A DNA stretch of 64,000 bases from Bilabrum cf. latius (lineage: Eukaryota): positions 992,001-1,056,000 of the forward strand of contig OZ237737.1 of NCBI GenBank assembly GCA_965178125.1. The letters run 5' to 3'. The notes under the pieces were generated by a model that saw only the letters and a list, made by a program, of their open reading frames with translations, had not been told where the DNA came from and did not search any database. Below, one piece after another: positions 3,104 through 27,713 of this stretch (position 1 is its first letter; the number at the start of each line of letters is the position of its first letter). The translations under genes were made by a program, and so were the position numbers.

Positions 3104-3189
3104 ACTGCTGCAGCCTTATTAAATTGGTTAGTTCGAGTGTCTGAGGATATATTCGACTTGATTGCATCGGGTTGGCTGCACGGCGGAAC

Positions 3190-4482: not shown

Positions 4483-4615
4483 TTCTGTATTGGAGCTTTG
4501 GTCGGGGCCCAGACGCAGCTCATGGTGATGCAGACATTGGGTCGGGTCGGCGACGCGCACAAGCGGGCTTTCGATCATCATCACGATTAGCGACATCGGA
4601 GCAATACAATTATAC

Positions 4616-7600: not shown

Positions 7601-10600
7601 AGGATGATCGTCCAGCATCGCCATGTACATTCCACGCATGACCGTCGTTCCCCCGATCCTCTTGGGATGACCCAAGTGGAACGTAGGCTCCCTCTTTGGC
7701 TCCGGAGCCGGCATCTCATTGTCCAATCGACGAGACGGCTGTACCTTCGCCGCAGGCTCGGGCGAGCGGACAGCAACTTCGCTAGAGGGGCCAAAGGTAC
7801 TAGCTCGATTGGGTTCTGCTACCGCCCCAGTGTTAGCGGCAGCAGCTGTATCGCCGGTCAGTGTCGCACCGACCGTGCCGGTGCCCCTCCCAGTACTGTT
7901 GTCACTCGTTGCGCTTGTGGCACTACCCTCTTTGAATCCAGATCCATCGCCAAGATCCTGCCTGCTGCCAGCCCATCGGTTCGGCGAGCCGATGTCAGGC
8001 TTCACATCTGCGCTCCGAGGGGAGGCAGGCCGTGCCCCATTCACCTGCACCGGCTGGCTGTTGGATTCCGCAAGCTACCCGGCTCTGCCTTCTACAATGG
8101 ATGCGTACTTTTCCTCTCTAGCTGCGTTCAGCGAGCCCCCGCCTTGCTTGGCAGCTGCCTCACCTGCCCTGCGAGCCAGACTCGTGATCTGCTCGAATGT
8201 TCGAGTCAGCTCGATCTCCGTTTGGTAGTCTAAGCCTTTGGCCTCTGCCAGCTTGATTAAGTTCGTGAGGTGGATGTTGTAGTCCTCTACCTCAGTAAGC
8301 ATCCGAATGAACTTGATCTCGTCGTCTTCCAGGAGCTCGTCCGCGAAGGCAGCTGTCTGCTTCGCGTCGAGGTAGCAAACTACGGCCAAGAGAACCAAAG
8401 AAACAATCAACAAACTTCCTACCAGTATGAACACACCCGGGTTGTTCAGGATGGTCTCACGATCAAAGGCAGTTGCAGCCTGGCTAAACACCTTTCTCTA
8501 GTCACTGCCTAGCTGCTGCATGCGCCCCTTGATGTCCGTGTGGTGGCCGCAGAGACACGCGAGGGCCCCGATGTCAAGGTCAACGTAGTCGGGCTTGCAT
8601 CCGCGCGTCTCCCAGCTTCCTTGACCTCCAGCAGCCTCTTCGTCCCAAAACTCGCACCGAACAACAGTGAACTGTGGAACAACTGTGTCTGAGGCGTTTC
8701 TCTCGATGGTGACGTTGGGGCGCGAGCCGACTAATGGAATTTCCTCGAGATCCTCATTCACGATTTGTAACTGCAGCTCAGCAGCTAGAATAACAGTGTC
8801 AATCGGAAGAAAGACCCTCGACTGGAGCCCGAAAGAATCCGGCTGCACAACGTCGCCAGAGTCTTGCTCGATAGCATCCACCGAGACGGTGAGGGTCGTG
8901 CGTGGGCGGCTGCCAGCCGGTGCCGTGAACACTGTATCGTTGCCTGTGCCAGAGCTAATGTTGGCGGGTGTCCCGGTTACATTCTGGCCCAGCAGAGTGC
9001 TAGCGTTCTCAGAGATCTCGTCAGCGTGGAGCTCGATTGGCCAGCGAGCAGCAACGAATGCAAGCTCCTGCGATCCAGGCGACGCCCCCGACTCTGCAAC
9101 CGGCTGCAACCCAAATACACCGCCAGCGGAGTCTGATGCAACTGCTGTACCAGGTGAACGTGTTGCACTGGATCCATTGAAGGTCACTGCCGAGCTCGCG
9201 GATCCTTGCGGGGTACCCACAGCAGCGGCAAGAGCCAGGGACGAGTTCTGCGAGCCTGGAGCGGCAGCAGCATCCTATTGGCTGGCAATCAGCCCGTTTC
9301 CTTCGTCAGCATCGGCACTAGCTGCCGCTTGCAACATCCTGCGGAGCATACCATCCGGGCTTTCAGGTGCGCGAGGTGCGCCTGACGCAGTCAGCGCGCC
9401 CCCGTTCGAGCGTACCCAGACTCTGCGCAAGGACAGGCGCCGGGCCTCAGCGGCACCATCGTCCGTGTCCTGCAGATCTAGAACAGTAGGAGCCTCGCCA
9501 GGCACAGAATCGGCCACAAAAAGCCGCCCCACGCTCCGCAGGGTGGCCTTTGCTCCTGTGACCACCGGTGCTTCAGCCCGAGCAACACCATCTGTTGCTG
9601 CGCCCGTGCTGGCCTGCAGACGGCGCCGCACCGCTGCCCTCCTACCACTAATCGTGTTTACGCCCTCCGTTTGCTGCTGCGCAGCTTCCTCCTCTCTTGC
9701 GGCGGCAGCCGAGGACTCTGCGTTGAAGTTGCCGAGGGCGCCCTGTATGGCCCTGCCAACAGGGTCTGCTCGACCAGGGTCCATCTCAAATTGACCCGCG
9801 GTGTCTGTCGCGCTGCTACCTGTGCCAGCCTAATTCTGAACACGAGTGAACTCCCGCTCCTGTGCTTCGATAATCACTTGCACATTGTCCACCACAGACT
9901 CTGCCAACTCTTCGGAAGCGACGCCCACGCTAGCAGCACCCTGCATGGATCGCCCAACAAGCTGAATGGCGGCGTTGGACGGAGGAACTTCCCGTAGAAC
10001 TCGGGAGGTCACGTCAACCGAAAGCCGCTGCAGCTCTGCTGCCACACTGCCTGGCTCAGGTGGCGGCAGCACAACGCCCTCTGGCACCTCACCGTTGGGA
10101 GTCACGCTCAGCGGCAGGGCCAGCGAGAGACCAGAGGTCAGGAGTAGGCTCTGCTGGGCGCTTCGCGTAGCAATCAAGGAGCTAGTTCGCTGCAGCTACC
10201 CGCGTAAAAACGGAGCAACGACGTCGGGGTCAGCTGCCTGGTTGTCCGTGAGCGATCCCGCGAGCTAAACCACCCGCCCGAAAGCTACCTGTGCTCCAAA
10301 GCGATCGGTCACAACCACGACTGCTACGGCCAAGTACCCGCGGAGCGTGCGAATCCCCGGCATGATGGTGGTCGCAACTGGATTGGGCGAATTCAGGCCA
10401 ACAGTTGACGCCTCAGCAGACCGTGCGGTCCGAAACGCGGAGGTGGAGTTGAGCGTATCGCCTGGCAGCTTGCTTCCCGGCGACGCCAAACCGGAGCTCT
10501 CGAGCGCACTGAGTGGTGTGACGAGGAACTCGTACTGCAGCGGCAGATCCTCCGGGTCATCCTGCCAACCAGAAGCGACGAGAACGAAGTCGTCCAGCAG

Positions 10601-11548
10601 TGCACGCCCCTGTCCCGTGGCAGACACCGTCAGGGTGCCTGTGGACGGGGGCTCGTTGGCCACAAGCCACACGTCCACGAAAGGGTCATCATCGTCGGGT
10701 ACCGTGCCCACAAAATAGGTGGATACTCTAAACTGATAAACGGTGCCAGGAGTGAGGCTGTTCTCCGCAAATACGACCTGCGGGCCGCTCACGCCGGTCA
10801 GCAGCAGCCGCTCAGCGCTCTGCGATGGGATGCCTGTCGGGCCCGTGTCGAACAAGTCTGCGGGCAAGTCGCCTTCGATCTGCTGCCAACTGTATCGAAG
10901 AAGAACAGCTAGAATCGGAGACTCGATGGCAGGCCGCACCTGAACTGGTATTTTATAACTCGTGGCAACCTTGTAGCCGTCCACTCCGCTGCGTCCGGGG
11001 ACAGACGTGAGGGCGCTTCGGCCTCTCGTGCCCACACGGTCAACCACCAGAGACGGAAGCTCAGTTTCCAAAATGATGAGTCGGATCGATTCTCCAACTT
11101 TGGATTGCAGAGTGAGAGACCCACCTGAGACGAACGCAAGACTAGCAGGTGCGATAGACACACCTCCCTCAATGCAACCAGTTTCACCACCAGACGCTAA
11201 AAAATCGCCACAGTCTGATGAAACCGTGGTCCCATTAACACTAACCCCGCTACATTCCCACGCTTGGTTCGTACCAGTTTCGCAAGGGTGGTCCTTTAGT
11301 CGGGTACTAGAAAATGTAGCCGATGTGGCGCACGGTGACACCATGAGGCCGCCATCAACGTTCACGGCTGCATTACAGCTTCGGTCCGCAATCACTACGT
11401 ACTGCCCTAGACGTACAATCTACCTGAACTGGCCGTACAGTCCCTGGGCCGCTAATGCGTATCCAGCGGAATTGGGCTGCGACTGCGCTGCCACAGCCCA
11501 GTGCAGCACAAGAATAGTACAGACGGTGCTCAAAGACCTAAAGACCAT
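4616..11548 (-). CDS. Polycystin-1/PKDREJ-like membrane protein (signal peptide, REJ, GPS, ~5 TM), ~2,310 aa
   Basis: Nine minus-strand ORF pieces (low ends 10265, 9830, 9275, 8498, 8075, 7541, 6656, 6197, 4616) share one frame and are separated by TAG. The start is MVFRSLSTVCTILVLHWAVAA-Q at 11548 and the end is TAA at 4616-18. It has a REJ-like motif (NEPPSTGTLTVS...GWQDDPEDLPLQYEF), a GPS motif (CEFWDE...SWETRGC...CLCGHHTD) and polycystin-like TM helices. Confidence 0.8.
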
Positions 11549-11918
11549 TAAGTTTCTCGAAATTCGTGACTATCGCAAATTTTGCAGCAGCGATGGCTGC
11601 GAAAAGAACTGTAGTTTCGATTTCTTTCTGGTTCTGGCAAGTGCAGTTGCGGTCGCAAGTTCAATGAATCCGAGTCAATCGAAAGGCACTTCAGTCGCAA
11701 CCAGGTATGATCCTAAGAAAATGGTGCTCTCAACACAATATATTTAAATGCTATTATTTGCAGTGAATGAATTGCAGTATCTTCCAGCGAGAATTCATTA
11801 AAGGATGGTACTTTCCAAATGTACCGTGCATTTATTTTCAAAACCAGATTGCGACCAACTGCGACTTGCCAAACGGTCCATATGTCTTCGAGCAGCATTT
11901 TGGGACTAAGTACCCACC
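11549..11918. promoter_or_regulatory. Putative bidirectional promoter between the PKD1-like and dynein genes
   Basis: A 370-bp AT-richer interval lies between divergent start codons. The dynein ATG is in a CCACCATGG Kozak-like context. Confidence 0.5.
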
Positions 11919-14900
11919 ATGGCAGGCCGTAGTGGCCGTAGTCGAATTCCTATGGCACCAGGAAGGAGTGCGAGATTAAATTGGATGGGATCAAGAGTCG
12001 CAGATGTCCTCGGAGACAAGGTGACGGGTGATGAAGCCGCTCAAGCTCTTAGCGAGGACGGCAGAGCAGCCGCACTTCTGGCTGCGCAGGATACCAGGCG
12101 GCCTATGAGCAAGTTATTTATATACTATCAGCCAGAGCAGTCGTCAACCGAGGAGGTGAGAGGGTTTGTCTCGCATGCCGTGTAGCGATACTGCTTGTTT
12201 TTGACCGTTTGCCGAATCTGCTGCTGCCTTTATGGAATCTGAGCATCGGTCTTGGCACGCCTATCCACACCCGTGCTTAATTTTGATGTGATCCCAAACA
12301 ACGCGCCCCTCTCTTGCCATGTGCGATGGAGTTCACGGGACTAGCGATCTGAACCACAAACCCCATTGCGCGCAGTCAAAAGCATCGTCGGATGACGCCC
12401 GACTGCTCATCACCGACGGACAAGACGAACCGCTCGTTGGAAAGGGTGTGTATTTCATCCGTGTGTGCGATCCCTCGAAGCAGATCAATACGGACAAGGT
12501 GAGTGACCTGCCGAGCACCCGACTTGAGTGACCGAGTATCCTTGTGCACCTGTGGTTGAACCTGGGTTCCTGCCTCTCATTTACCGTGTCCGATCGCTGT
12601 GCACCTTCCATTCTCACACAGGAATCGGATGGTGACCTCCTGTCTGGAGAGCTGGATGCCAGCTTGTTGGGTTTGCTGGAGGCTCAGCTCACTCGCGTGT
12701 ACGAGCCGATGCTGCGCGACAAGGCGGATTGGGGACTGGCGGATGACGAGGTGGCATCAACATTCCGTGAAGAGGTGGCAAAGTTTGCTGAAGACGTAGG
12801 CGAGGCTCGCCGGAGCATTGCCTCCGGCGTTCGACTGAAGCAGCCGAGAGACGACATTGATTGGGAGGCTGTTCGCCGCAATCCCCAGCGAGTCGCCAAG
12901 CGTGACCCAGAGCTCGTCCGAGAGTTAGAAACCTTGATGGAGTCGTGGTGCGACGACATCGCGGGACACTTGGAGGACGACAAGATGGCACGTGACGCGG
13001 TGCAAGACGAGCACGGGCCCCGCGGCATGATCGAGCTCTGGCGGGCACGGATGCAGGAGCTCACCTCCATCACGGAGCAGCTCAAGTCCAGGCCGTTCAT
13101 GGCGGTGACGTCGTTTATGACCGAGCTCGTGCAAACATCGGCCTCGTCCGCGGCGCAGGCGTCCTCGTCGGACCACGTGAGGAGTAGCGCATTCGAGCTG
13201 CTCCGCAGGTGGAAGGCTCTGGATGTCGCCATCACTGAGGCGGCCAACGAGGCCAAGGATAACGTTAAGTACCTAAACACGCTGGACAAGTTCATCGAGC
13301 CGCTGTACGCGCAGTCGCCCCCGCAGATCGTGGATGCACTGCCCGCACTGCTGAACTCGATCAAGATGGTGTACACGATCAGCAGGTACCTGTGCTCGGA
13401 CGGTAACAACCACAGGATGATCGATCTCCTGCAGCGGATCGTCGAAAAGATGATCAGGAGGTGCATCGTGCACGTGCTCTTGGCCGGAGAAGACGCTGCA
13501 GACCCCGCCACACCCGAAGAGATGGGTGCTGCAGAGGCAATGGCAGGCAAGGGTGGCGCTGCGTCAGGGGCTGGATCCTCTGAGAGTAAGACAGCAGGGG
13601 ACGGTGCCGGTGCAAGCGCCGCCGTGGAGGTCAAGTCCAGCTACGGGCTCATGTCAGAAGACGCCCTGCTGGACAGCAAGAGCGCTCAGTACGACCTGTG
13701 GTTCAAGCAGCCGCAGGCTCTCCTCCGTCGGCTGAGGCACACGCTCCGGCTCAACGACGCGTTTCAGACGTCTTACCGGCTCATCCGAGAAGCTCTCGAG
13801 GCGACTGATTCGTCCAGGAAGTTTGACTGGCCAGACCGCGTGGTGTTTGGCAGATTTGACCTCTTCTGCAGGCGAGCCATCAAGCTGATCGACCTGTTCA
13901 GCACGTGCGAGCAGATGCGGCTGCTCAAGGAGCACAAGATCGAGGGCATGGAGCCCATCACGGAGGCGTTCGATGCTTTGATCGATGAGATGAGGAGGAA
14001 GAACAAGTACGAGCTGCTGCGGTTCACCTCCAATGCCTTCGACAGGGACTTTGTCGAGTTTAACGTGCGCGTGACCGCGCTGGAGGGGCAGCTGCAGCGC
14101 TTTATCGATGAGTCTTTCAGGGATGCGGCCGATGTCATGTCCTCTTTGCAGCTACTGCGGAAATTTGAGGCCGTCCTGCAGCGAGAGTCGCTTCGCCGAG
14201 ACTTGGCATCGAAATTCAGCCTGATTTTCCAGACGTTCGGTGAAGAGCTTGAGATGGTGCGCGACCTGTACGACACCCACAGGCACAGCCCCCCGGTAGC
14301 AAGGAACGCGCCTCCAGTTGCGGGTAACATTGCTTGGGCGAGGCATCTCCTGCAAAGGATTGAAGCTCCCATGCGTGCCTTTGAGGCCAACCAGGCCGTG
14401 CTTGCCACGAAGCCAGCGAAGCGAATCGTCGGCCTCTACAACCGCGTGGCTCGTGTGCTGGTCAGCTACGAGTACCTCTGGTATCAGGCGTGGACTGAGA
14501 GCATCCCCAAGGCCAAGGCTGGTCTGCAGGCCACCCTGATCATCAGGCATCCTGCCGACAAGCGTCTGTACGTGAATCTGGACCAGCAGATCCTCCAGCT
14601 GATTCGCGAGGCAAAGGTCATGGATCGCATGGGCATTGAGGTACCGGAGAGCGCTCGGGTTGTGCTCTTGCAGGAGGCCAAGCTCAAGTCCTACTACAAC
14701 TCCTTGTCGCACGTGCTTCGAGAGTACGGGCGGATCACCAAGAGCGTGCCTCCTGTGTGCGCACCGCTCCTGCGTGGTGTGCTCCACGATTTCGAGCTGA
14801 AGCTGCGCCCGGGCATGGTGAGCCTGACCTGGACGTCCTTGAACATCGACTCGTACAAGGCGCACCTTTTGGCCGCCCTTCAGCGCCTGGAGGAGTTGGT

Positions 14901-17900
14901 AGCCTCCGTTGTTGACATTCTCAACAACCGTATCGAGAAGAACCTCAAGCTGATCGCGCTGGCCAAGATGGTTTCGCTGCCCGACGACGACGTAGTTACC
15001 ACGGACGAATTCGTGTCTACGCAGCACGAGACCGCGCGGGAGCAGGCCGAGTTCCTGCGTGGGAAAAATCTGGAGGTAGAGAGTGCTGTGGAGGATCTGT
15101 GCAACCTGGTGCTAAGCTTCCCGCTGGATCCGCACGTCAAGGGCCCCCAGCCGGTAGACGCCGAGAGACTGCGCCTTCACTACTCCCACTTCCTCTACAG
15201 CGCCTTGCTCAACGCGTGCAAGCAGAGCCTGAACGCTCTCAAGAAGAGGGTGGCAGCTCGCGTAGCCCGTGCCAAGACGCACGAGGAAATCGTGAAGCGG
15301 GCCGAGCTGCCGTTCGAGACCGTTGGCGGCCCGGGCACCCCTGCACCGGAGGAGGGCTTCCTGGTGGCAGCAGACAGGGCCCGCAGCTTTGCCGCCAGGC
15401 GAGCTGCCGCCATGGGCGAGGACGATGACGAAGAAAAGGCCAAGAAGAAGAAGGAGAAGGCCAAGCGCAAGCAGAAACAGGCGGCTCAAGGCGGACAGGG
15501 CCTGCCCCGCGAAGCCGCGGCCGCCGCTGCGGTGGCAGCTCTCACGGGAGCTGCCGTGGAGGGCAGCGAGATGGACGACGCACAGGACGGTGCGGCCGGC
15601 GAAGGCGACGGCGAGGTGTTCTAGCAGGGCGCTCCGTTCTTCGAGATCGAGGTGGAGCTGGCGGCCCCTGATGTCCGCCTGAGCCCCAGCCTAGAGTCCG
15701 TGCAGCAGGCCATCAACCGGTGTGCCGTGGCCGTGCTGGGTAGCTCTAAGCGGCTGCGTGACTGGGGCAACTACCCGTCGTCGCAGGTGGCAGCTGAAGA
15801 GGCGGCCAAGCGGGCTGCAGGAGAGGACGATGACGGGATGGGCGTGGCTCTGCCAGGCTCTTCCATTGTCCGAGGACTGTTTGGCACTGTGGGCGGCACC
15901 GCAGTTGAGCGCGGGGAGGTCCTGCCCACCAACGCTGATGGCACCGGCACTGGCGGTCGGACGTTCTACGATCGCATCTCCAGCGATCTGGAGGTGGTCC
16001 GGGTGGTGTTGCTGCTGACTGGGTCTGTACAGTCTCTCCGCGACCAGGTGGATGCATACCTCAGCACATTCCGCCGGTTCAGCTGGATGTGGGAGCGCGA
16101 CATCGACCAGACCTTCAAGGAGTTTGCGTCGACGAAGCCCAACACGAGCGAGTACGAGTAGGAGCTGGGTCGCTTCCTCGCCATCGAAGCCGAGATTGAC
16201 GCTCTGCAGTCAGACTTTAGCATCGGCGCCCTGTCTCTGTCCACACGGCACCTCAAGACGCAGCTGAAGGAGCTGGCCGGACAGTGGCGCAGCAAGTTCT
16301 CGGAGAACCTCCACAGGCAGGCTCGCAAGGGGCTCGAGGATCTGACCGAGTACATCCGCAAGGCCAACCAGCGCCTGTCTAGGAACACAGACACGCTCCC
16401 TGCCCTAGCCGAGTGCATGCAGACTCTAAGGGACGTGCGCACCATGGAGGCCAACATCGATGCGGAGACTGCCCCGGTGCTTGACATGTATGCCATGCTG
16501 GAGAGGTACCACGCCTCGAGCTTTATGGACAAGGACGAGCTGGACCAGCAGACGCGCCTCATGCCCGAGTGGAAGAAGCTCGTGGAGCTGGCCGACACAA
16601 AGACCGCCGAGGTGCAGGAGGGCCAGAGCAGGCACCGCGTGAAGCTGTTGCACGATGTGCGCGCCATGCGCGAAGACGTGCGGGCCTTCAGGCAGGGCTT
16701 CCTGCAGAAGGGTCCCATGCGGGACGACGTGTCGCCGGACGAGGCCCTTGATCTTCTGCGTCGCTACAGCGACGAGTTTGAGATCATCTGGACGAAGAAG
16801 GAGCTGTACCAATCCGGCGAGAGGCTGTTTGCCTTGCCCGTGACTGAGTACCCCGAGCTCGATCGCACGAAGAAAGAGCTGAGCCTGCTGAACAAGCTCT
16901 ACGGTCTGTACCGTGACGTCAAGGCCAAGAAGGAGGAGTGGTCCACTATTCTGTGGTCTGATGTGGTGCAGCAGGTTGAGCAGATGGCCGCTGACATGCA
17001 GAACTTCGCGGATCGCGTTCGCAAGCTGCCTGGCAAGCTGCGGACGTGGGCTGCCTACGGTGTGCTGGAGAAGGACATCCTTGATTATCAGGGCGTCCTG
17101 CCCTTGCTCACAGAGCTGTCAAAGCCCTGCATGCGCGAGCGCCACTGGAAGGAGATCGAGGAGCTCACAGGAGGCGAGGAGCTGCCCGTGAATGACTCGA
17201 ACTTCACCTTGCAGCAGCTGATGTCTCGCGATCTGGCAAAGTACCAGGAGGACCTGGAGGAGATCTGCGACGCCGCCGCGCGCCAGGAGGTCATCGAGCA
17301 GAAGCTCCATGAGATTGAGGACCGCTGGGCAGAGTATGAACTTCTGTTCAAGCCGTACAAGGAAACTGGCATCCCCATTCTGGCTGGCGTGGCGGTCGTC
17401 ACTGAGGAGCTGGAGGAGGACCAAGGCAACCTACAGACCGTCCTCACGGCCCGGCACATCGGACCTTTCGCTGAGTGGGCCAACTCGCTGCTGAAGCAGC
17501 TGTCTGACACTTCTGACACGCTTGATCTGTGGACCAAGGTGCTCAAGCAGTTCGTCAGTTTGGAGCCCGTGTTCATGAAGGGCGACATCGCGAGGCAGCT
17601 CCCGAAGACTGCCGGCCGCTTCCAGAAGCTCTACAAGGAGATCTCGAGGATGCAGGCAAATGCAGCCGACACTGGCAAGGTTGTGAAAGCTTGTGAGAAC
17701 GAGGCGTTGCGCGCCGCGCTGCCTGTCATGTACCAGGAGCTGGAGGGCTGCAGCAAGAAGCTTGGGCAGTACCTCGAGCAGAAGCGAGCCAAGTTCCCCC
17801 GGTTCTACTTCGTGTCGGACCCAGTCCTCCTGCAGATTCTGTCTCAGGGCAGCGACCCTCACGCGGTGCAGCCTTTCTTCGAGAAGGTCTTCGATGCCGT

Positions 17901-20900
17901 GTCGCACGTCGTGTTCGACAAGAAGGACAGGACGCTGGTCACACAGATTGTGAACGTGCTCAAGGGCAGCCCCGAGGAAATCGACCTCCGGAGGCCGGTC
18001 AAAGCACAGGGCAACATCGAGGACTGGCTGACTCTTCTCCTTGAGGAGATGCAGAAGACGCTCAAGGAGATGTGCGAGGAGTGCGCCAATGATATCGCAG
18101 ATGTTGGCGATGACATTCCGCGCCTGAGGGGCTTCGTCGACAACGCGTGCGGGCAGTACTCCTTGCTCGGTTTGTAGCTCAAGTGGACCACCGACATGGA
18201 GAAGGGCCTCTCTGCCGGTCGCGGCAACCGCGCCACTCCTAGCGGGATGAAAGAGTCTCTGGAGAAGACCATTGCTGTGCGCGAAGAGCTGACCAAGTGG
18301 TGCAGACAGCCACTCGGGACGGTGGCCAACCGCAAGAAGATCGAGACTTTGGTCACCATTCAGGTGCATTAGGTCCAGGTGGCCAACGAGCTGCGGCAGC
18401 TGGCCATCGAGCAGTCCAAGAAGGGTGGGTCAGGTGCCGGACCCCTGAGCACCGGTAGCTTCGACTGGACTAAGCAAGTTCGGTTCTACTGGCGCCCTGA
18501 CGGCCAGGACCGCGTATCGCTGGATGGTCAGCTCGTAGTAGGCTGCACGGACTACCAGACAAACTACTCCTTCGAGTACCTCGGCATCAAGGAGCGCCTG
18601 GTGATCACCCCGCTAACCGACAGGTGCTATATCACGCTGTCTCAGGCGCTCCGAATGAAGTTCGGCGGTGCACCCGCTGGCCCTGCAGGAACCGGAAAGA
18701 CCGAGACTGTGAAGGACTTCGGCCGAACCCTGGGTCTCTACGTTGTGGTAACCAACTGCTCGAGTGAGATGAGCTACAGGGATTGTGCCAAGATTTTCAA
18801 GGGGTTGTCCATGGCTGGTCTTTGGGGCTGCTTCGACGAGTTTAATCGCATCCTTCTGCCAGTGCTGTCGGTGGTCGCACAGCAGCTCTTCGTGCTGCAG
18901 GCCGCTGCCCGTTCCAACCACGAGACCTTCCAGTTCCCCGGTGATCCGCAAGTCATCCCGCTTAACCCGCAAGTAGGCTACTTCATTACAATGAACCCTG
19001 GTTACGCTGGGAGGCAGGAGCTCCCTGAAAACCTCAAGGCACTCTTCCGCGGCGTGGCCATGATGGTGCCCGACCGGCGAATCATCATCGAGGTGAAGCT
19101 CGTATCCGTAGGATACTCGAAGTCGCTGGAGCTTTCCCAGAAGTTCTTCGCTTGCTACAGGCTGTGTGAGGAGCAGCTCAGTCAGCAGAAGCACTACGAT
19201 TTCGGGCTCAGGAACATTCTGTCCGTGTTGCGCACAGCAGGTGCCACCCTTCGCGAGAACCCGCACAAGGGCGAGGCTGAGCTCCTGTACCGGACTCTGC
19301 GCGACATGAACCTCTCCAAGATGGTTAAGGATGATGTGCCGCTGTTTACACAGATGCTTGATGATCTTTTCGTCGGAATTGACAGACCGGAGACGGCCAG
19401 TTACCCCGACGTGGAGCGGGAGATCCAGTTCAAAGCCTGCGAGATGGGCCTGGTGATGCACAAGCCCTGGGCCAGGAAAGTCGTGCAGCTGTACGAGACA
19501 TCGATTGTCAGGCATGGCATCATGCTGTCTGGTCCAACGGGTGGTGGTAAGACGATGATCATTGAAGTGCTCCGCGGCGCGCTTCAACGTAAGGAAGACA
19601 AGAAGCACGTGGTCGTTCGCCTGAATCCCAAGGCCGTGAAGGCAGTAGAGCTGTATGGATAGACGTCCCCCGCAACGGGAGAGTGGGAAGTCGGTATTTT
19701 CTCCAGCATCTGGGAGAAGTACAACCAGCGCGAGTTGCCGCAGATTACGTGGATCACATGCGACGGACCTGTGGACACCATCTGGATTGAGAGTCTGAAC
19801 ACCGTGCTAGACGACAACCGGCTGCTGACGCTAGCCTCGGGTGACCGGTTCCCCATGACGGACAACGTGCTGCTGCTGTTCGAGAACCAGGACCTGCGAA
19901 ACGCCAGTCCCGCCACGGTGTCCCGCGCTGGTATCGTCTTCGTCTCTGCCGAGGACCTGGACTATCACCCCGTGGTGGAATCGTGGGTGCGCAAGCAGCC
20001 TGCCGAGTACCGAGCCTTGCTGCGCCACCTTATTGCGAAGCACGTGGGTGCCCGTAACCCCGGCAACGATCACAAGTCAGAGCCTGGCGAGACGTTCGAA
20101 TTCCGAAGGCAGTTCTGCTCGGAGCGCATCGGGACCTCTCGCGTTGGTGCTGTAAACGGCATGCTATCTCTCATCGACGCTATTTTGAAGGAGGCCACTG
20201 AGACCGGGGCTCTGCCTGGTGTTGGGGGCGATGCGGCGGCGATTGCGAAGCAAAACGGCGACCCGATTGACATCATCAGCGCAGGCGGTGGGGTATACAC
20301 TGGTGAGGGCAGCGGACACCGCAACGAGGCAGACACTGACAAGCTCAGGAAGCTGACCGACAGCATGCCCGAGACGGCCATTCCTCTAGACGACCCCTTC
20401 GAGAAGCCCAGCGACTTCATGACCGGGGCAAACGGTGAGGTCGGCAAGGTGGGAGTGTCGCAAGAGTTCTACGAGGCCATGGAGCGCATCGTGCTCTACA
20501 GCGCTGCGTGGAGTATCGGTGCTGTGCTTGAGCCCGAGGACCGCGCCAGGTTTGATGCGCTGCTGAGGAACAAATCGCCCTCCAACATGCCTGATGCTGG
20601 TGAGGACGGTGGCGTGGAGGAGGGCCACGATGAGGGCGATGTGCCGTCAACCCGCGGCCTCACCGTATTCGAATACGACCTCGACTCGAAGACGGCTGGA
20701 GGCGGCTTGCAGTGGGTCAAGGTACGCCCGCAGGTGTGGGAGTATCCTTCCGCTCAGGATCCTCTTGATTTCAGCAACCTGCTGGTGCCCACCATGGACT
20801 CAACGCGAGCAAGCCGATTGCTCAGCCTGGTCCACGGGAGCCTGCAGCGGCCGACGCTGCTGGTGGGAGGCCCCGGTACTGCCAAGACCTGCTCGGTGCA

Positions 20901-23900
20901 GATGTACGTGCAGAGCCAGTTCGACCCGAACGCGCATATCCTGAAGAAGATCAACTGCTCCAGCGCCACAACGCCGGCCATGCTGCAGCAGCAATTCGAG
21001 TCCGGACTCGAGAAGCACGGTGGCAAGAGCTTCCGGCCCCCAGGCGGCAAGCGCATGACCGTATTCATCGATGACGTGTCTATGCCGGAGATCAATGAGT
21101 GGGGAGACCAGCCCACCAACGAGCTCACAAGGCAGACGCTCGAGGACCACGGCTTCTACTTCCTGGAGAAGGAGCGCCGTGGCGAGATGCGCTTGCTAGA
21201 GGGAATGGCGTTCATCGGTGCGATGATCCACCCCGGCGGCGGCCGCAATGACCTGCCTGCTCGTGTGAAGCGGCATTTCTACATCTTCAACATGGTGCTG
21301 CCGGACCAGCAGTCGCTGGATGATATGTATGGCCAGATGGTACGCGGCCGGTTCACATCGGCTGCTGGCTTCGACGCTCGCGCCCTCGAGACTGCCTCGC
21401 GCCTTACGACCGCCACCATCGACCTTTGGCGTGGCGTCAAGGCCAAGATGCTGCCAACCCCCGCCAAGTTCCATTATGTCTTCAATATCCGCGACCTGTC
21501 ACGCGTGTTCCAAGGGATCCTTCTGACCCCCTACGACGTGCTCTTGAGCGGTGGACAGCAGATGAAGGGCGCATCTCCAGCGACCACCATTGTGCGGCTC
21601 TGGCGACACGAGTGCTCTCGCGTGTTTGCCGACAAGCTTGTTGCCAAGCATGAGAAGTACTGGGTCTCACAAGCCATCGATCGGGTTACGGAAGCGCAGT
21701 TTGGCGCCGCTCTGCTGGAGGAGGCCAAGGACGAGGAGAGTCTCTGGGCGAACTTCTTCCGCGACGACGTCTACGATGAGGACGAGGTGCTCATCGAGGA
21801 GGCACCCAGGATGTACGAGGCTGGTGGGACACTGGAGTCCATCCGGGCTCGTGCCGAGCACTTCATGAACGAGCACAACCGGGAGCATCCGTCTAACCAG
21901 CTGAATCTGGTGCTGTTCGACGACGCCCTCAAGCACCTGCTGCGGATCAGCAGGATCTTGCAGACTCCCCGCGGGTCTGCCCTGCTTGTTGGTGTTGGTG
22001 GAAGCGGCAAGCAATCTCTCACGAGACTTGCTGCTTTCATCAACCGCAGCGAGCTCAGGCAGATCACCCTCATCAAGAACTACGGCGTGAAGGATTTCAA
22101 GGAGGACCTCAGGATCCTGTACGACCTGGCAGGTCACCAGCGCAAGGACGTTACCTTCCTCCTCACGGACGCAGAGATCAAGGATGAGGCATTCCTCGAG
22201 TTCGTGAACATCGCTTTGCTGACCGGTGATATTCCTGCCCTGTTCGCAAAGGACGAGATGATGGCCATCACGGCCGACCTGAGCCAAGCCTTCTCAAAGG
22301 CGTACCCGGGACTGTCCCCTACGGCGGATGCCCTCAAGTCATACTTCATCCAGCTCGTGCGCGACAACCTTCACGTTGTTCTCTGCATGAGTCCGGTTAA
22401 CCCGAAGTTCCCGGAGCGGGCGCGAAAGTTCCCTGGCCTGGTCAGCAGCACCACCATCGATTGGTTCCTGCCCTGGCCCGAAGACGCCCTCCGCAGCGTG
22501 AGCAGGGGCTACCTTGAGGACTTTGAGGTGGAGGTGGACGACCCCGCCGTCAAGGACGAGCTGGTTACCCACGTGGCCCGAGTGCACCAGATGGTCGTGA
22601 AGACTTGCGATCTGTACTGGACCTCGATGCGCAGGCGCGTGTATCAGACCCCCAAGAGTTTCCTCAGTTTCCTGCAGAACTACAAGGACACGTACGTGCT
22701 GAAGCTGGACGAGATCAAGGAGAAGGAAAGCAGGGTAAACCTGGGTCTCAGCAAGCTGATTCACGGTGCCGAAGACGTGGCCACTCTAAAGGAGGTGGTG
22801 AAGAAGGAAAAGGTCAAGGTCGCAAACGCGGAGCGCGAAGTGACCGAGATGCTGGGCTCGCTGGAGGTGTCTTCGGCCGAGGCCGAGAAGGAGGCAGCAG
22901 TCGTGAGCAAGATCAAGGCAGACAGCGAGCACGAGGCGCAGCGCATCCGTGCAGATGAAGAGCAGTGCCAGTCAGATCTGGCGGCTGCGCAGCCCTTCCT
23001 CGACCAGGCCGTGTCGGCTGCCGAGAGCATCAAGCCCAAGGACATCACCGAGATCAAGGCCATGAAGAAGCCCTCCGACATCATCCGCGTGGTGCTTGAC
23101 ACGGTGCTCATCTACCTCAAGCTGCCCATCGACCCCGTGCAGCCAGCCACTCTCAAGATTTCCAAGAAGGATGTCGCCTTCATCCTGCCGTCTTTCGCAC
23201 TCTCCGTGAGCAAGCTGCTGTCGGACGAGGGCTTCCGCGGCAAGCTGACCAACTTCGACAGGAACAACATGTTGGAGGAGACGATCGAGCTGGTGGGGCC
23301 CTACCTGGACTTCCAGTACTTCACCGCGGAAATCGCGGGCAAGGCCTCCAACGCTTGCGAGGGACTTGCCGTGTGGTCGACCGCCATGCGGAGCTTCCAC
23401 CGAGCCAGCAAGATCGTGAAGCCTCGTTTGGAGGCCCTCCAGATCGCCCAGGAGAAGCTCAAGGCCGCCCTTGCTGCGCTTAAGGAGGCTGAGGACCGCT
23501 TCAAGGCCTGTGAAGACCGCCTCGCTGAGCTCAAGGCCAAGTACGACGGAGCCATGGCGGACAAGACCAAGCTGGAGGAGGGTGCCGCGGCTCTCGAGTC
23601 CAAGATGATCAAGGCCGACAAGCTGATCGGCGGGCTGCGCGTGGAGAGGAAGCGCTGGCAGCAGGACTCGTCCAAGTTCGCGGAGCGCAAGCGCAGGCTG
23701 ATCGGCGACTGCGCCGCTGCTTGCATGTTCGTGAGCTACTGCGGTCCATTTAATGCCGAGTTCCGCCGGCTGCTGATCCGCGACAGATGCATCCGCGACT
23801 GCCGGAAGCGCGGTATCCCGGTGTCACCGGACATCGATGTGATCACGTTCCTGGTTGATGAGGCGACCGTGGGCGAGTGGAACCTGCAGGGGCTGCCTCA

Positions 23901-26900
23901 GGACCCGCTGTCGAAGGAGAACGGCATCCTTGTGACTCGATCGTCGCGCAGACCCCTACTTATCGACCCGCAGGGACAGGCCCTGGTGTGGATCAAGAAC
24001 AGGGAGGAGAAGAACCTGCCCAGGCACGGTACCACCACTCTCACTCACAAGGACCTGAAGGACCAGCTTACGCTTGCCCTGGAGGAGGGTCTTTCTCTGA
24101 TTCTCACTGCTGTCGAAGAGGAGCTCGACCCCATCTTCGACCCCATCCTGGAGAACCGGTTCATCAAGAAGGGACGCAAGACCATGGTGGAGGTGCAGGG
24201 CAAGCTCACGGAGATGCGGGACGATTTCAAGCTCTTCTTCATCACCAGGCTACCCAACCCGCACTTCAGCCCCGAGCTGCAGGCAAAGACCACTGTGGTG
24301 GACTTCACTGTGACCATGCAAGGTCTCGAAGACCAGCTGCTGGGCCGCGTGATCGGCAAGGAACAGCGGGCGCTCGAGGAGCTGTTGCAGGAAGTGCTGG
24401 CTGACGTGAACGAGAACACGAGGTCTCTGCAAGACCTGAACGACCAGCTGCTGACTCGCCTTACCCAAAATGAAGGCAATCTCCTGGATGACGAAAACCT
24501 GCTCAACGTGCTCAACTCCACGAAGTAGAAGGCGGAGGGCGTACAGGAGCAGCTCAGCAAGGCCTCCGAGACTCGTCGCAACATCGACCAGCAGCGCGAG
24601 GTGTATCGGCCCGTGGCCACTCGCGGCTCAGTGCTGTACTTCAGCATTGTGGCCATGTCGGAGGTGAACCCCATGTACCAGACATCTCTGGCGCAGTTCG
24701 TAGTGCTTTTCATGCAGTCGATGGACAAGGCGGATCGCGCCAAGCTTGCCTCCAAGAGGGTGGGCAACATCATCGAAACGATGACGTACATGGTGTACAG
24801 GTACATCAACCGCGGCCTGTTCGAGCAGCACAAGCTGCTGTTTGTATTCACCGTGGCCCTCAAGATCCTCGTGCGGGCGAGGAAGCTCTCCCAGGAGGAC
24901 ATTGCCCTTTTCCTACGTGGCGGTGCCGCCCTCGATATGCAGACCGTGTCTAGGCGAATGCCCTCGTGGATCAAGGACCCCAGCCACTGGCTGAATGCGG
25001 TCGCCCTGGCCGAGGGCTCTGCTCAGTCGAGCGGATTCTTCCGCGCTTTAATCGACTACGTCTATCGCAATGAGGCCTCGTGGCAGCTGTGGTACGAGTC
25101 GGAGGCGCCTGAGAGCGATGCCCCGACCCAGCAGGCACCTCCGCCAGGCGCTGCTGCCGGTGGTGCCGCTGGCGGGGGTCGCCGGGGCCGAGGTGGTGGC
25201 GCCGCAGCTGCCTAGGCCGCAGCCTCTGCCATGGTATCAAGCAACCGTATCCCCGACTACGAGGACTAGATCCGGGAAAACACTGACATGGGTAGCTTCC
25301 TGAGGATGGTGCTCGTGCGTTCGCTGCGTCCCGACCGCACGATGTTGGCCGTTCGCCGCTTCGTCCGCGACACCAAGGAGCTGGGCGAAAAGTATGTCGA
25401 GCCCGTCACAGACACGATCGAGCAGATCTACACGTCTATGGACAACCAGGCTCCTGTCATCTTCCTGCTGTCGGAGGGTGCCGACCCAACCGAGAGCATC
25501 AAGCAGCTGGCCCACCGCAAGAAGAACACGATCGAGGCCATCTCGCTGGGCCAGGGTCAGGAGCCTGTGGCACAGCGCGCGCTGCAAGCCGCAGTGGTCA
25601 ACGGCACCTGGGTACTCCTGCAGAACTGCGAGCTCGGGCTGGGCCTCATGGACACCCTCGAGGAGTGGATCCTCAGCGTGCGGGAGTCTGCCCACGAGGA
25701 CTTCAGGTTCTTCATCACCGCTCAGCCCGACCCCAAGTTCCCGCTGGGTCTGCTGCAGCTGTCCATCAAGGTCACGAACATGCCCCCCACTGGCCTGCGC
25801 GCTGGTCTGCTCCGTTCGTTCACTGTTACGGTGGACCAAGATAGGCTCGAGCGGATCGACGGCAACGAGTGGCCGAGGTTGCTGATGGCTCTGTGCTTCC
25901 TCCATTCGATTGTGCAAGAGCGAAGGAAGTTCGGCGCGCTGGGCTGGTGCAAGCCCTACGAGTACAACTCGGGCGACCTGGATGCGTCCATCCGGTTCCT
26001 GGAGAGGCACATGTACGCCTCTACGCAGCTCCAGTGGCCCGAGATCCAGTACCAGGTGGCCGAGGTGCAGTACGGTGGCAAGATCACGGACGACATGGAT
26101 CGGAGGCTGTTCAACACCTTCACGCGCGGATGGATTGACAAGAAGACGCTCGAGTCGGGCTTCACCTTCTCCCCTGCCAACCCGATCCAGCCTATTCTGG
26201 ATGCGAATGGGCAGCCGTTCCGCCCCTCTGCCGTGCTGGAGAAGGACGTGGAGGGCTACAGGAAATACGCCCAGGCATTCCCCGACATCGACTCTCCGGA
26301 GCTCTTCGGCCTGCACCCCAACGCCGATCTGACGTTCCGAAACAAGGAGTCGCGCGAGTTCTTGGGGTCGATGGCTCTGACCCAGCCCAGGCAGGTGGGC
26401 GGTGACGACGCCGCTGCGCAGGCTGACGACGACGAAGGAGACGCCCCTGAGGATGACGGCACACAGGGACCGCAGCTCTCCGCGTTTGAGAAGAGGGTGC
26501 AGCAGGAGTCAAAGACGCAGTTGCAGCGGCTGCCTCCTTCGTACGACCTCGAGGACGTCCGCCTGCGGCTGTCAGGCGGCGCCCGCGGGCCGACTCCCTT
26601 GCAGACGTTCCTGCGCCAGGAGATCGAAATGTTCAACAAAGTGATCGTGAGGGTGCGCGACACTCTGCAGAACGTCCTGGCGGCCATCAAGGGCGAGGTC
26701 GTGCTTACTACTGAGCTACAGCAAGCGATGGACGCGATCTTCAACGCCGCGGTGCCTCGATCGTGGCTGTACACGCCGGGTGGGGACGAGTTCTCGTGGC
26801 TGCTGTCCAAGCTTGGCGGGTGGATGGGCTCGCTCGTCGACCGCGACAACCAGCTGCGGACGTGGCTCATGGATAAAGAGCCTGCTGCCTACTGGCTCAC

Positions 26901-27453
26901 TGGGTTCTTCAACCCGCAGGGATTCATGACTGCCACCAAGCAGCAGGTGGCGCGCGCACACCACTGGGCCCTCGATGTGGTGGAGTACAACTGCAGCGTG
27001 ACTGCCGTGGAGAAGCTGGAGCAGGCCGTGGGTGGCAACAAGGACGGCGTGCTCGTCTACGGGCTCTCCCTGGACGGTGCCGCGTGGGAGAGGGCCAAGG
27101 GGATGAAGGGCCTCGGTCCCGCCGCGGAGGGCGGTAGTGGCGGGAGGGGCAACTCGGGGGGACAGCAGGACAAGGTCCAAGAGATGGGCTTCCTGACCGA
27201 GCTGCCTCCCCGCATCCAGTACGTCTCACTGCCCATCCTGTGGGTATCTGCCCTTGATAAGACAGAGTACAAGAGGCAGAATAAGAGTAGGCACCTGTAC
27301 AAGTGTCCGCTGTACAAGTACCCGCTGCGGATGGACCTGTATTTGATCGCGATGATCGACCTGCCATACCGGCTTGGAGGCCTGTCTGCGTAGGAGGGTG
27401 AGGATTACTGGATCAAGAGGGGCGTGGCCTTGCTGTGTGCCACGGAGGTGTGA
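11919..27453 (+). CDS. DNAH5: Axonemal outer-arm dynein heavy chain, gamma/DNAH5-DNAH8 type, ~5,063 aa; exons 11919-12155, 12376-12498, 12622-27453
   Basis: The four P-loops are GPAGTGKT, GPTGGGKT, GGPGTAKT and GVGGSGKQ. Other motifs include WGCFDEFNRI, KFPRFYFVSD, a stalk coiled coil and the C-terminal YWIKRGVALLC. There are nine in-frame TAGs (15622, 16159, 18175, 18370, 19660, 24526, 25213, 25267, 27391) and a TGA stop at 27451-53. Subtype is inferred from the GTAKT P3 loop and the VH(Q) motif. Confidence 0.93.
12156..12375 (+). other. Spliceosomal intron 1 of the dynein gene
   Basis: GTGAG donor and GCGCAG acceptor, phase 0. Splicing joins ...QSSTEE to SKASSDDARLLITDG...KGVYFIR. Confidence 0.7.
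12499..12621 (+). other. Spliceosomal intron 2 of the dynein gene
   Basis: GTGAGT donor and pyrimidine-rich CACAG acceptor, phase 0. Splicing joins INTDK to ESDGDLLSGEL. Confidence 0.75.
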
Positions 27454-27713
27454 TATACTGATGAATTGATGCGAAAAGTTAGCGTACGCCAAATACAAGC
27501 CGTAGAATTTATTGGAGGCCTATTCCTGTTTCACCCCACGCATGATCCGGATCAATTGCCTTTGTTTGCACTCAACAGCATCTGCTATCATGTTGAACGC
27601 AACGCGGAAGTCTCCAGGACTACCATGGCTGGCTGGCGGCAAATCGCATCTTGGGAGCCCAGAGAAATTTCCTGCCAACGTGCACCTCGTTTCAGCTCTG
27701 CTTTCCACTCATT

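What the first reader, a model, noticed from the sequence alone, without database searches (positions are those of the whole stretch)
11919..27453. Variant nuclear genetic code: TAG encodes glutamine
Seen: the dynein heavy chain is complete and unframeshifted but has nine in-frame TAGs, and the dynein C-terminal motif (YWIKRGVALLC) lies after the last one. Known: gamma/DNAH5-type dyneins have LLGIQxxWT and TIxVHQRD motifs. Here they read LLGL[TAG]LKWT (18175) and TIQVH[TAG]VQV (18370), so TAG sits at conserved Gln positions. Inference: UAG is reassigned to Gln, as in NCBI table 15. UAG-only reassignment is rare in nuclear genomes. I know of it in the fornicate Iotanema spirale, a rhizarian and some ciliates, and I do not know of a stramenopile case, so this may be an undescribed independent origin.
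Basis: partly seen in the sequence, partly recalled or inferred. Interest (0 to 1): 0.96.

Follow-up and report, generated by a model that had tools for sequence, protein, structure and literature searches.

The report
UAG read as glutamine, stramenopile-like nucleus
In this piece of a protist nuclear genome the stop codon TAG is used as an ordinary glutamine codon while TAA and TGA still end genes, a rare change of the genetic code that seems not to have been reported for this branch of life.

Summary
The outer-arm dynein heavy chain gene (11919-27453, three exons, 5063 aa) has nine in-frame TAGs and no in-frame TAA or TGA. Two TAGs sit in near-invariant Gln columns (118 of 119 and 108 of 120 homologs). 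TAG is sense across the window: 91 TAG, 0 TAA and 0 TGA in 15,906 codons of five genes. Contigs from two further studies carry two GT..AG splice joints and show TAG at all nine sites, so they are most likely mRNA-derived and editing is unlikely. Three near-identical fragments (93-96% identity) have Q at 3 of 3 window TAG sites. A metagenomic relative (73% aa identity) also gives giant ORFs only with TAG=Q. In 5,794 aligned codon pairs, TAG pairs mainly with CAG, CAA or TAG in both directions, and Gln beats the next amino acid by 59 and 65 log-likelihood units. TAA and TGA end the genes, which is the NCBI table 15 pattern. The dynein is closest to stramenopile orthologs, with Cafeteria nearest among named ones. 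Nine literature searches found no nuclear code change in stramenopiles. The tRNA-Gln(CUA) and eRF1 could not be examined because no genome is held. Verdict: real, and a new lineage for a known code variant.

The parts
11919..27453 (+). Outer-arm axonemal dynein heavy chain gene (DNAH5 / Chlamydomonas gamma / Tetrahymena alpha type). Exons are 11919-12155, 12376-12498 and 12622-27453; 5063 codons; stop TGA.
   Evidence: for identity; for the splice joints and reading frame.
12156..12375 (+). Intron 1 (220 nt, GT..AG)
   Evidence: The joint 12153->12374 (cut +2) is present in contigs of X5, X6 and X7 and absent in X1. Sequence read.
12499..12621 (+). Intron 2 (123 nt, GT..AG)
   Evidence: The joint 12496->12620 (cut +2) is present in X5, X6 and X7 and absent in X1. 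Sequence read.
15622..15624 (+). In-frame TAG 1 (residue 1027 of the 12544 frame), variable column
   Evidence: 37 homologs aligned, V 11, N 5, no Q among the eight commonest.
16159..16161 (+). In-frame TAG 2 (residue 1206), variable column
   Evidence: 105 aligned, R 25, A 20, K 12, E 10.
18175..18177 (+). In-frame TAG 3 (residue 1878) in LLGL[Q]LKWT, near-invariant Gln column
   Evidence: Q in 118 of 119 homologs.
18370..18372 (+). In-frame TAG 4 (residue 1943) in TIQVH[Q]VQV, conserved Gln column
   Evidence: Q in 108 of 120 homologs, A in 12.
19660..19662 (+). In-frame TAG 5 (residue 2373), Glu-dominated column
   Evidence: E 101, Q 6 of 120.
24526..24528 (+). In-frame TAG 6 (residue 3995), variable column
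   Evidence: A 69, E 12, Q 3 of 115.
25213..25215 (+). In-frame TAG 7 (residue 4224), inside a lineage-specific Ala/Gly-rich insert
   Evidence: gap in 111 of 114 homologs.
25267..25269 (+). In-frame TAG 8 (residue 4242), variable column
   Evidence: R 49, K 25, Q 9 of 114.
27391..27393 (+). In-frame TAG 9 (residue 4950). It lies 20 codons before the TGA stop and before the conserved C-terminal motif.
   Evidence: E 34, D 22, Q 5 of 100. In one search, 100 homologs still align at residue 4960.
27451..27453 (+). TGA terminator of the dynein gene
   Evidence: The contigs that carry the splice joints end at 27418-27487.
31167..53068 (+). Giant LamG / cadherin / TIG surface protein gene. It reads as two frames (31167-44633 and 44630-53068) split by a 146-nt duplication. 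64 in-frame TAGs; stop TGA.
   Evidence: It is continuous in the relative L002.
4616..11578 (-). REJ-domain membrane protein gene, 15 in-frame TAGs, stop TAA
59242..63558 (+). CFAP57 (WD40 plus coiled coil) gene. Three in-frame TAGs lie inside the homologous part (61246, 62941, 63298). Stop TAA.
44442..44733 (+). Perfect 146-nt tandem duplication that shifts the frame of the giant gene

Best explanation
The organism reads UAG as glutamine throughout its nuclear genes and keeps UAA and UGA as its two terminators (the pattern of NCBI table 15). Shown here: TAG lies in frame in conserved, spliced genes. It stays TAG in contigs that are most likely mRNA-derived. It exchanges with CAG/CAA between strains and between species. 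TAA and TGA are absent from coding frames and close the ORFs. Inferred from what is established for other UAG-to-Gln lineages (Panek et al. 2017, PMC5304391, passages read): a tRNA-Gln with anticodon CUA, one mutation away from tRNA-Gln(CUG), decodes UAG but not UAA; eRF1 has lost or weakened recognition of the G in the third stop position; and glutaminyl-tRNA synthetase accepts the CUA anticodon. The carrier is most likely a stramenopile, with the bicosoecid Cafeteria the nearest named relative by dynein. At least one environmental relative at about 73% amino-acid identity shares the code. The nearest full-length dynein relatives (about 56-60% identity over residues 1800-2600; Cafeteria among them) are on record as unbroken proteins of 4.4-4.9 thousand residues. 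The change therefore arose within this lineage.
For: (1) ORFs. With TAG=Q the window gives ORFs of 4969, 4488, 2812, 2320 and 1438 aa, against a longest of 1597 aa under table 11. Table 6 (TAA also Gln) leaves the three TGA-ended ORFs unchanged.
(2) Codon counts. In 15,906 codons of five genes there are 91 TAG, 0 TAA, 0 TGA, 539 CAG and 137 CAA.
(3) Dynein columns. Against 120 homologs, with TAG masked as X, Q is in 118 of 119 and 108 of 120 at two sites. A profile likelihood over 8 usable columns gives Q a posterior of 0.9999, with E next. The same method decodes 58 of 59 sense codons correctly, and 2793 of 2850 random nine-column samples.
(4) Near-identical fragments. P0274, P0249 and P0266 (93-96% identical, two of them recorded on a 17.6-kb contig) have Q at 3 of 3 window TAG sites. 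P0249 and P0266 end just before the next window TAG.
(5) Relative L002. It gives ORFs of 4447 aa (41 TAG) and 1469 aa (8 TAG) only with TAG=Q; TAA=Q changes nothing in these two genes, which stay in pieces. In 5,794 aligned codon pairs, window TAG pairs with Q 20 and TAG 8 of 57. Relative TAG pairs with Q 24 and TAG 8 of 49. Window CAG pairs with Q in 53% and TAG in 10% of cases; window GAG pairs with Q in 3%. Log-likelihood: Q -120.5 against E -179.7, and in the other direction Q -75.0 against R -140.0. 57 of 57 sense codons were decoded correctly.
(6) Other data sets. Contigs of X5/X7 and X6 (two further studies) carry both GT..AG joints that X1 lacks. The listed pieces of X5 and X6 cover all nine TAG sites, and those of X7 cover seven of nine, with 0 other letters.
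(7) The last TAG. It lies 20 codons before the stop, and 100 homologs align beyond it. TAG is therefore sense even close to the 3' end.
(8) Placement. All 14 of the best 120 dynein hits that carry an organism name are stramenopiles by my own knowledge of taxonomy. Full-length phmmer scores are Cafeteria 5098, oomycetes about 4700-4820, the other named ochrophytes 4500-4740 and Hondaea 4328 bits. The best solved structures score Tetrahymena 3735, Chlamydomonas 3365 and human DNAH5 3059 bits. In the trees the window is sister to Cafeteria_a plus P0005, with SH-aLRT 100 and 97.
Against: No tRNA gene was found in the window or in L001-L003, and no genome is held. The decoding tRNA and eRF1 are therefore unseen and the mechanism is inferred.
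Only five genes in 64 kb were sampled.
Only 2 of the 9 dynein TAG columns are Gln-dominated. One is Glu-dominated (E 101, Q 6 of 120). Some columns of the giant protein are hydrophobic or acidic in distant homologs (V/I/L 65 of 74; D 44 of 74).
The three CFAP57 TAG columns are variable, with Q in only 6 of 120, 10 of 118 and 13 of 107 homologs.
The tool marks the run kinds only as guesses ('RNA?', and for X5 'probably DNA'). That the spliced contigs are RNA is my inference from the joints.
Whether some genes end in TAG cannot be seen from ORF logic.
Both dynein trees warn that long branches meet. No non-stramenopile dynein was in the tree. In the CFAP57 tree the window sits in a nine-row clade with no named organism, outside the named stramenopiles under midpoint rooting.
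Confidence: 0.93

Rival explanations
1. UAG has two meanings, Gln inside genes and stop at gene ends, as in context-dependent codes (Condylostoma type), or it is read by inefficient readthrough rather than full reassignment.
For: ORF logic cannot show that no gene ends with TAG. Only about ten gene ends lie in the window. The dynein 3' UTR looks very short: the stop is at 27453 and the contigs end by 27487.
Against: TAA and TGA are never in frame, unlike in the known ambiguous codes. A TAG 20 codons before the stop, about 95 nt from the contig end, still precedes a conserved motif to which 100 homologs align. A gene with 64 TAGs could not be made by low-efficiency readthrough.
Confidence: 0.04
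2. Both UAA and UAG are reassigned to Gln (NCBI table 6), and TAA is merely rare because the genome is GC-rich.
For: UAA and UAG usually change together in nuclear codes (PMC11687900, passages read). GC is 0.57-0.62.
Against: 0 TAA against 91 TAG in 15,906 codons, although CAA is a quarter as frequent as CAG (137 against 539). About 23 TAA would be expected by that ratio. The REJ and CFAP57 ORFs end at TAA. TAA=Q lengthens no gene in the relative L002.
Confidence: 0.02
3. TAG is not translated at all: the TAGs are sequencing or assembly errors, RNA-edited sites, or mutations in pseudogenes.
For: Nothing specific. This is the default suspicion for in-frame stops.
Against: Four runs from three studies show no other letter at any site. 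Spliced contigs keep TAG. There are no frameshifts and no TAA or TGA in 5063 dynein codons. Eight TAG positions are shared with a separate metagenomic relative.
Confidence: 0.01

Closest known systems
Iotanema spirale (Fornicata): UAG = Gln, with UAA and UGA as stops (Panek et al. 2017, PMC5304391; abstract and passages read)
   Same: The same code pattern: only UAG is reassigned, to glutamine, and UAA is kept as a terminator. The expected mechanism is a tRNA-Gln(CUA) derived from tRNA-Gln(CUG) plus an altered eRF1.
   Different: An unrelated supergroup (a metamonad anaerobe) known from a transcriptome. Here the carrier is a GC-rich, intron-poor genome with stramenopile-like genes. The eRF1 change reported for Iotanema (T32G in the GTS motif) could not be looked for.
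Ciliates with UAG = Gln and UAA as stop: Protocruzia tuzeti and two phyllopharyngean lineages (McGowan et al. 2024, PMC11687900; passages read)
   Same: The same table 15-like assignment, which arose independently several times.
   Different: The window's dynein scores about 1360 bits higher against Cafeteria than against Tetrahymena, so the organism is not a ciliate. Ciliates are the classic hotspot of code change. No nuclear change is on record for stramenopiles in the papers I searched.
UAR = Gln codes (NCBI table 6: many ciliates, Hexamita, Ulvophyceae, Streblomastix, Amoeboaphelidium; listed in PMC11687900)
   Same: UAG is read as glutamine.
   Different: TAA is not a sense codon here: 0 of 15,906 codons, and it ends genes.
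Rhizarian exLh and some phyllopharyngeans: UAG = Leu. Scotinosphaera: UAG = Ser (PMC5304391, PMC11687900)
   Same: UAG alone is reassigned and UAA is kept as a stop.
   Different: The amino acid here is Gln. Neither Leu nor Ser came near Gln. In the dynein profile Ser is 14.9 log units behind and Leu is not among the best eight. In the pairwise test Ser is 76 units behind in both directions and Leu is not among the best five.
Mitochondrial code changes in Labyrinthulea (Stramenopiles) (Zihala et al. 2020, seen only as a citation in PMC12574857)
   Same: The only stramenopile code changes my searches turned up.
   Different: Those are organellar and act through a different release-factor system. 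The present case concerns spliced nuclear genes.

Membership tests
Nuclear code with UAG = Gln and UAA/UGA = stop (NCBI table 15 pattern) | In-frame UAG in conserved, expressed protein genes | tested here: met
   9 in the dynein, 3 in CFAP57, 64 in the giant gene and 15 in the REJ gene. Spliced contigs keep TAG.
Nuclear code with UAG = Gln and UAA/UGA = stop (NCBI table 15 pattern) | UAG positions correspond to glutamine in homologs | tested here: met
   posterior 0.9999; Q at 3 of 3 sites in near-identical fragments; Q ahead by 59 and 65 log units.
Nuclear code with UAG = Gln and UAA/UGA = stop (NCBI table 15 pattern) | UAA is not a sense codon and terminates genes | tested here: met
   0 TAA in 15,906 coding codons. 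The REJ and CFAP57 ORFs end at TAA. TAA=Q has no effect in L002. The sample is only five genes.
Nuclear code with UAG = Gln and UAA/UGA = stop (NCBI table 15 pattern) | UGA is not a sense codon and terminates genes | tested here: met
   0 TGA in frame. The dynein and the giant gene end at TGA.
Nuclear code with UAG = Gln and UAA/UGA = stop (NCBI table 15 pattern) | UAG is no longer used as a terminator | tested here: inconclusive
   A TAG 20 codons before the dynein stop is read through, judged by conservation. Gene ends at TAG cannot be excluded from 64 kb.
Nuclear code with UAG = Gln and UAA/UGA = stop (NCBI table 15 pattern) | A tRNA-Gln with anticodon CUA | not testable with these tools
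   No tRNA in the window or in L001-L003, no Rfam match and no genome held.
Nuclear code with UAG = Gln and UAA/UGA = stop (NCBI table 15 pattern) | eRF1 N-domain changes that weaken UAG recognition | not testable with these tools
   eRF1 is not in the window and no genome is held.
UAR = Gln code (NCBI table 6) | In-frame UAA at sense positions | tested here: not met
   0 TAA in 15,906 codons, against about 23 expected from the CAA/CAG ratio.
Ambiguous codes with all three stops as sense (Condylostoma, Blastocrithidia type) | In-frame UGA and UAA as well as UAG | tested here: not met
   0 TGA and 0 TAA in frame.
Outer-arm axonemal dynein heavy chain (DNAH5 / ODA gamma / Tetrahymena alpha) | Full-length similarity to solved outer-arm heavy chains | tested here: met
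   7kek_A 3735 bits, 7kzm_C 3365 and 8j07_n0 3059, all at E = 0. The homologs carry the dynein Pfam domain set.
Stramenopiles (taxonomic placement of the carrier) | Orthologs nearest to stramenopile sequences and nested among them in trees | tested here: inconclusive
   Dynein: 14 of 14 named top hits are stramenopiles, the scores are about 600-1360 bits above the best non-stramenopile solved chain, and the window is sister to a Cafeteria paralog. However, the dynein tree has no outgroup and carries long-branch warnings, and in the CFAP57 tree the window's clade has no named organism. No rRNA is available.

The most novel reading that the evidence does not exclude
This is the first nuclear genetic-code change in stramenopiles. 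It would be an independent UAG-to-Gln reassignment with UAA retained, in a bicosoecid-related clade of heterotrophic flagellates. The clade holds at least two species-level lineages: the window's organism and the metagenomic relative L001-L003. The window's organism occurs in data of three separate studies. The lineage would be a GC-rich, intron-poor and possibly culturable system for studying how UAG and UAA recognition by eRF1 becomes uncoupled.
Probability: 0.55. Interest if true: 0.8.

Novelty: new member of a known kind. Interest (0 to 1): 0.74.

Why it matters
Nuclear code changes are rare. Cases in which UAG and UAA have different meanings are rarer still: by a 2024 account (PMC11687900) they are a handful of ciliate lineages, one fornicate, one rhizarian and one green alga. 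A stramenopile case would add an independent origin in a major group where none is on record. It would give one more natural experiment on how eRF1 can drop UAG while keeping UAA.

There is also a practical warning. Standard-code gene calling shreds these genes. The public protein collections already hold the window's genes, and those of a relative, as fragments of 46-285 aa. Annotation, MAG quality scores and phylogenomic matrices for this lineage will be wrong unless table 15 is used.

Tried and rejected
- Whole genome: none is held, so genome-wide codon inference and searches for the tRNA and eRF1 were impossible.
- The look-up of sequencing runs: no RNA holder listed. The run kinds are the tool's guesses.
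- tRNA scans of the window and of L001-L003 found nothing. Rfam found nothing in the window.
- The homolog search with the REJ protein gave only 2 weak hits covering 6-7% of the query, so its 15 TAG columns could not be scored.
- Distant homologs of the giant protein piece (about 25-38% identity) gave noisy TAG columns: Q was the commonest residue in 1 of 20. I relied instead on the near-identical fragments and the 73% relative.
- The CFAP57 TAG columns are variable and say little about the amino acid. The four TAGs upstream of residue 95 lie outside the homology and were dropped from the counts.
- The ORF upstream of the giant gene in L002 has no similarity to the window's neighbouring ORF, so it shows no synteny and adds no codon pairs.
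- A search for the accession prefix shown in one source's protein name found no paper. Cluster look-ups gave no organism names for the closest fragments.
- The CFAP57 tree did not place the window among named taxa.
Full report
**1. The observation**

Under the standard stop set, the region 11919-27453 breaks into ORFs of at most 1597 aa. Reading TAG as a sense codon gives one frame of 4969 codons, 12544-27453, with exactly nine TAGs and a TGA at the end. The nine TAGs start at 15622, 16159, 18175, 18370, 19660, 24526, 25213, 25267 and 27391.

The protein is an outer-arm axonemal dynein heavy chain. The best solved relatives are:
- Tetrahymena alpha heavy chain, 7kek_A, 3735 bits
- Chlamydomonas gamma, 7kzm_C, 3365 bits
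- human DNAH5, 8j07_n0, 3059 bits

ATG is at 11919. Exon 1 ends at 12155, exon 2 is 12376-12498, and exon 3 starts at 12622. Both introns are GT..AG and the frame is kept, giving 79 + 41 + 4943 codons. Both joints are present in assembled contigs of three public runs (X5, X6, X7) and absent from a fourth (X1), whose contigs run straight through.

**2. TAG is sense throughout the window; TAA and TGA are not**

With TAG=Q the window yields ORFs of 4969, 4488, 2812, 2320 and 1438 aa. Besides the dynein, these are:
- a LamG/cadherin/TIG giant surface protein
- a REJ-domain membrane protein
- CFAP57

Adding TAA=Q (table 6) does not lengthen the three ORFs that end in TGA. Over 15,906 codons of these genes I counted 91 TAG, 0 TAA, 0 TGA, 539 CAG and 137 CAA. 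If TAA were a Gln codon used in the CAA:CAG proportion, about 23 would be expected.

The other two frames of dynein exon 3 hold 20/9/118 and 11/21/108 TAG/TAA/TGA. The absence of TAA and TGA is therefore a property of the coding frame. The REJ and CFAP57 ORFs end at TAA; the dynein and the giant gene end at TGA.

**3. Which amino acid**

(a) Distant homologs. I aligned 120 dynein homologs (the best 120 of 1395 scored) to the query with TAG masked as X.
- Two TAG columns are almost pure Gln: 118 of 119 and 108 of 120.
- One column is Glu-dominated (E 101, Q 6 of 120).
- One column falls in a lineage-specific insert (gap in 111 of 114).
- The other five are variable.

A profile likelihood over the 8 usable columns gives Q a posterior of 0.9999, with E next. 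The same procedure decodes 58 of 59 sense codons correctly (AGA was read as K), and 2793 of 2850 random nine-column samples.

The three TAGs inside the homologous part of CFAP57 lie in variable columns and add little.

(b) Near-identical sequences. An exhaustive search with a 1200-aa piece of the giant protein (20 TAGs) found short fragments 93-96% identical to it: P0274, P0249 and P0266. P0266 and a cluster mate of each of the other two are recorded on a contig of 17,589 bases. These fragments have Q at 3 of 3 window TAG sites that they span. P0249 and P0266 end immediately before the next window TAG. This is what standard-code gene calling would produce on another strain of the same organism.

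(c) A relative. Fragments at 62-77% identity sit on contigs of 20-22 kb. I fetched one such contig as L002. Under table 11 its longest ORF is 413 aa. With TAG=Q it has ORFs of 4447 aa (41 TAG) and 1469 aa (8 TAG). TAA=Q does not join these pieces.

Codon-by-codon alignment with the window's giant gene gives 5,794 pairs at 73% amino-acid identity.

| Codon | Aligned sites | Pairs in the other genome |
|---|---|---|
| Window TAG | 57 | Q 20, TAG 8, R 7, S 4, V 3, E 3, G 2, D 2, L 2, and Y, F, K, N, A, P once each |
| Relative TAG | 49 | Q 24, TAG 8, R 4, A 3, P 2, S 2, and F, T, G, E, L, M once each |
| Window CAG | 159 | Q 53%, TAG 10% |
| Window GAG | 192 | Q 3% |

With substitution tables taken from the same alignment, Gln beats the next amino acid by 59 log units (over E) and 65 log units (over R) in the two directions. 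57 of 57 sense codons with at least 20 pairs decode correctly.

**4. Not an artefact and probably not editing**

Four runs from three studies were laid on 11000-30900, and no other letter, insertion or deletion was reported.

| Run | TAG sites covered by listed contig pieces | Other letters |
|---|---|---|
| X1 | 9 of 9 | 0 |
| X5 | 9 of 9 | 0 |
| X6 | 9 of 9 | 0 |
| X7 | 7 of 9 | 0 |

X5, X6 and X7 carry the two GT..AG joints. Their contigs stop near the gene's ends: they start at 11907-12046 and end at 27418-27487, while X1 goes on. I therefore take them to be mRNA-derived.

The tool itself marks their kind only as a guess, and for X5 as "probably DNA". If they were DNA, they would still be independent confirmation of the TAGs, but not evidence against editing.

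**5. No sign of position-dependent termination**

The last dynein TAG lies 20 codons before the TGA and about 95 nt before the end of the longest contig. 100 homologs still align beyond it, to the conserved C-terminal motif. I cannot exclude that some genes end with TAG.

**6. Who carries it**

- The 14 of the best 120 dynein hits that bear an organism name are all stramenopiles by my own knowledge of taxonomy: Cafeteria, oomycetes, diatoms, Ectocarpus, Triparma and Hondaea.
- Full-length phmmer scores are Cafeteria_a 5098, oomycetes about 4700-4820, the other named ochrophytes 4500-4740 and Hondaea 4328 bits. The best non-stramenopile solved chain scores 3735 bits.
- In two dynein trees the window is sister to one Cafeteria paralog plus an unnamed protein. 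Support is SH-aLRT 100 under LG+G4 and 97 under a mixture model.

There are three caveats. Both trees warn that long branches meet. Neither tree has a non-stramenopile outgroup. In the CFAP57 tree the window falls in a well-supported nine-row clade without any named organism, outside the named stramenopiles under midpoint rooting.

I conclude that the carrier is a stramenopile (about 0.85), perhaps near bicosoecids (about 0.5).

No protein more than 62% identical to the dynein (residues 1800-2600) was among the full-length proteins searched. The nearest full-length relatives are on record as unbroken proteins of 4.4-4.9 thousand residues. The reassignment is therefore younger than the split from them.

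**7. Mechanism**

Shown: UAG is in frame, most likely in mRNA, and interchangeable with CAG/CAA; UAA and UGA are excluded from coding frames and close them.

Inferred from Panek et al. 2017 (PMC5304391, passages read):
- a tRNA-Gln(CUA), one anticodon mutation from tRNA-Gln(CUG), which pairs with UAG but not UAA
- an eRF1 with weakened recognition of G at the third stop position
- a GlnRS that tolerates the CUA anticodon

None of these three could be examined. There is no tRNA in the window or in L001-L003, no Rfam hit and no genome held.

**8. What is known**

McGowan et al. 2024 (PMC11687900, passages read) list UAG=Gln with UAA kept as stop for Iotanema spirale, Protocruzia tuzeti and two phyllopharyngean ciliate lineages. 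They also list UAG=Leu for a rhizarian and some ciliates, and UAG=Ser for Scotinosphaera.

Nine searches of the held library, together with passages of PMC12574857, PMC12152300 and PMC11412368, turned up only mitochondrial code changes in stramenopiles (Labyrinthulea). The library lacks most subscription journals, and supplements were not seen, so "not in print" is provisional. The sequence occurs in runs of three studies dated 2025, so others may already be describing it.

**9. Verdict**

The code itself is a known variant. The lineage appears to be new for it, and the variant is shared by at least one environmental relative.

Noticed in passing
window 44442-44733: A perfect 146-nt tandem duplication (44442-44587 and 44588-44733) shifts the frame of the giant gene, giving two ORFs that both encode the same 35 residues. 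The relative L002 is continuous across this point. The repeat carries GAG|GTGAGG, so a GT at 44486 and an AG at 44631 could let exactly 146 nt be spliced out. That would fit the model, recalled from memory, of intron birth by duplication of an AGGT-containing segment. It could equally be an assembly artefact or a real frameshift.
   Followed up: partly
window 27451-27487: The contigs that carry the splice joints end 0-34 nt after the dynein TGA (27418, 27438, 27487). This suggests a very short 3' UTR, though contigs cannot show a true RNA end.
   Followed up: no
window 59242-59525: The CFAP57 ORF has four TAGs and no ATG before the point where homology starts (about residue 95). The true start probably lies in an upstream exon or at a non-obvious site.
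   Followed up: no
L002 7265-7268: The relative's copy of the giant gene changes frame where the window is continuous (window residue 1481/1482 of the 31167 frame). This may be an intron or an error in the metagenome contig.
   Followed up: no
window 4616-63558: Several cilium-related genes lie side by side: a REJ-domain (polycystin-like) protein, an outer-arm dynein heavy chain and CFAP57. TAG makes up about 4% of Gln codons in the dynein and in CFAP57, but 22% and 12% in the two frames of the giant surface protein and 15% in the REJ protein.
   Followed up: partly
window 15000-24900 (runs): The stretch is held nearly complete (shares 0.90-1.00) by runs filed under three different coded organism labels in three studies. 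The organism may be present in other organisms' cultures or samples, or it may be filed under several names.
   Followed up: no
window 934-3066, 3172-4482, 27714-30518, 54512-58374: ORFs of 436-934 aa that are open only with TAG=Q have no Pfam family. Contigs of X5 cover 27518-30590, so at least that one appears to be transcribed.
   Followed up: no
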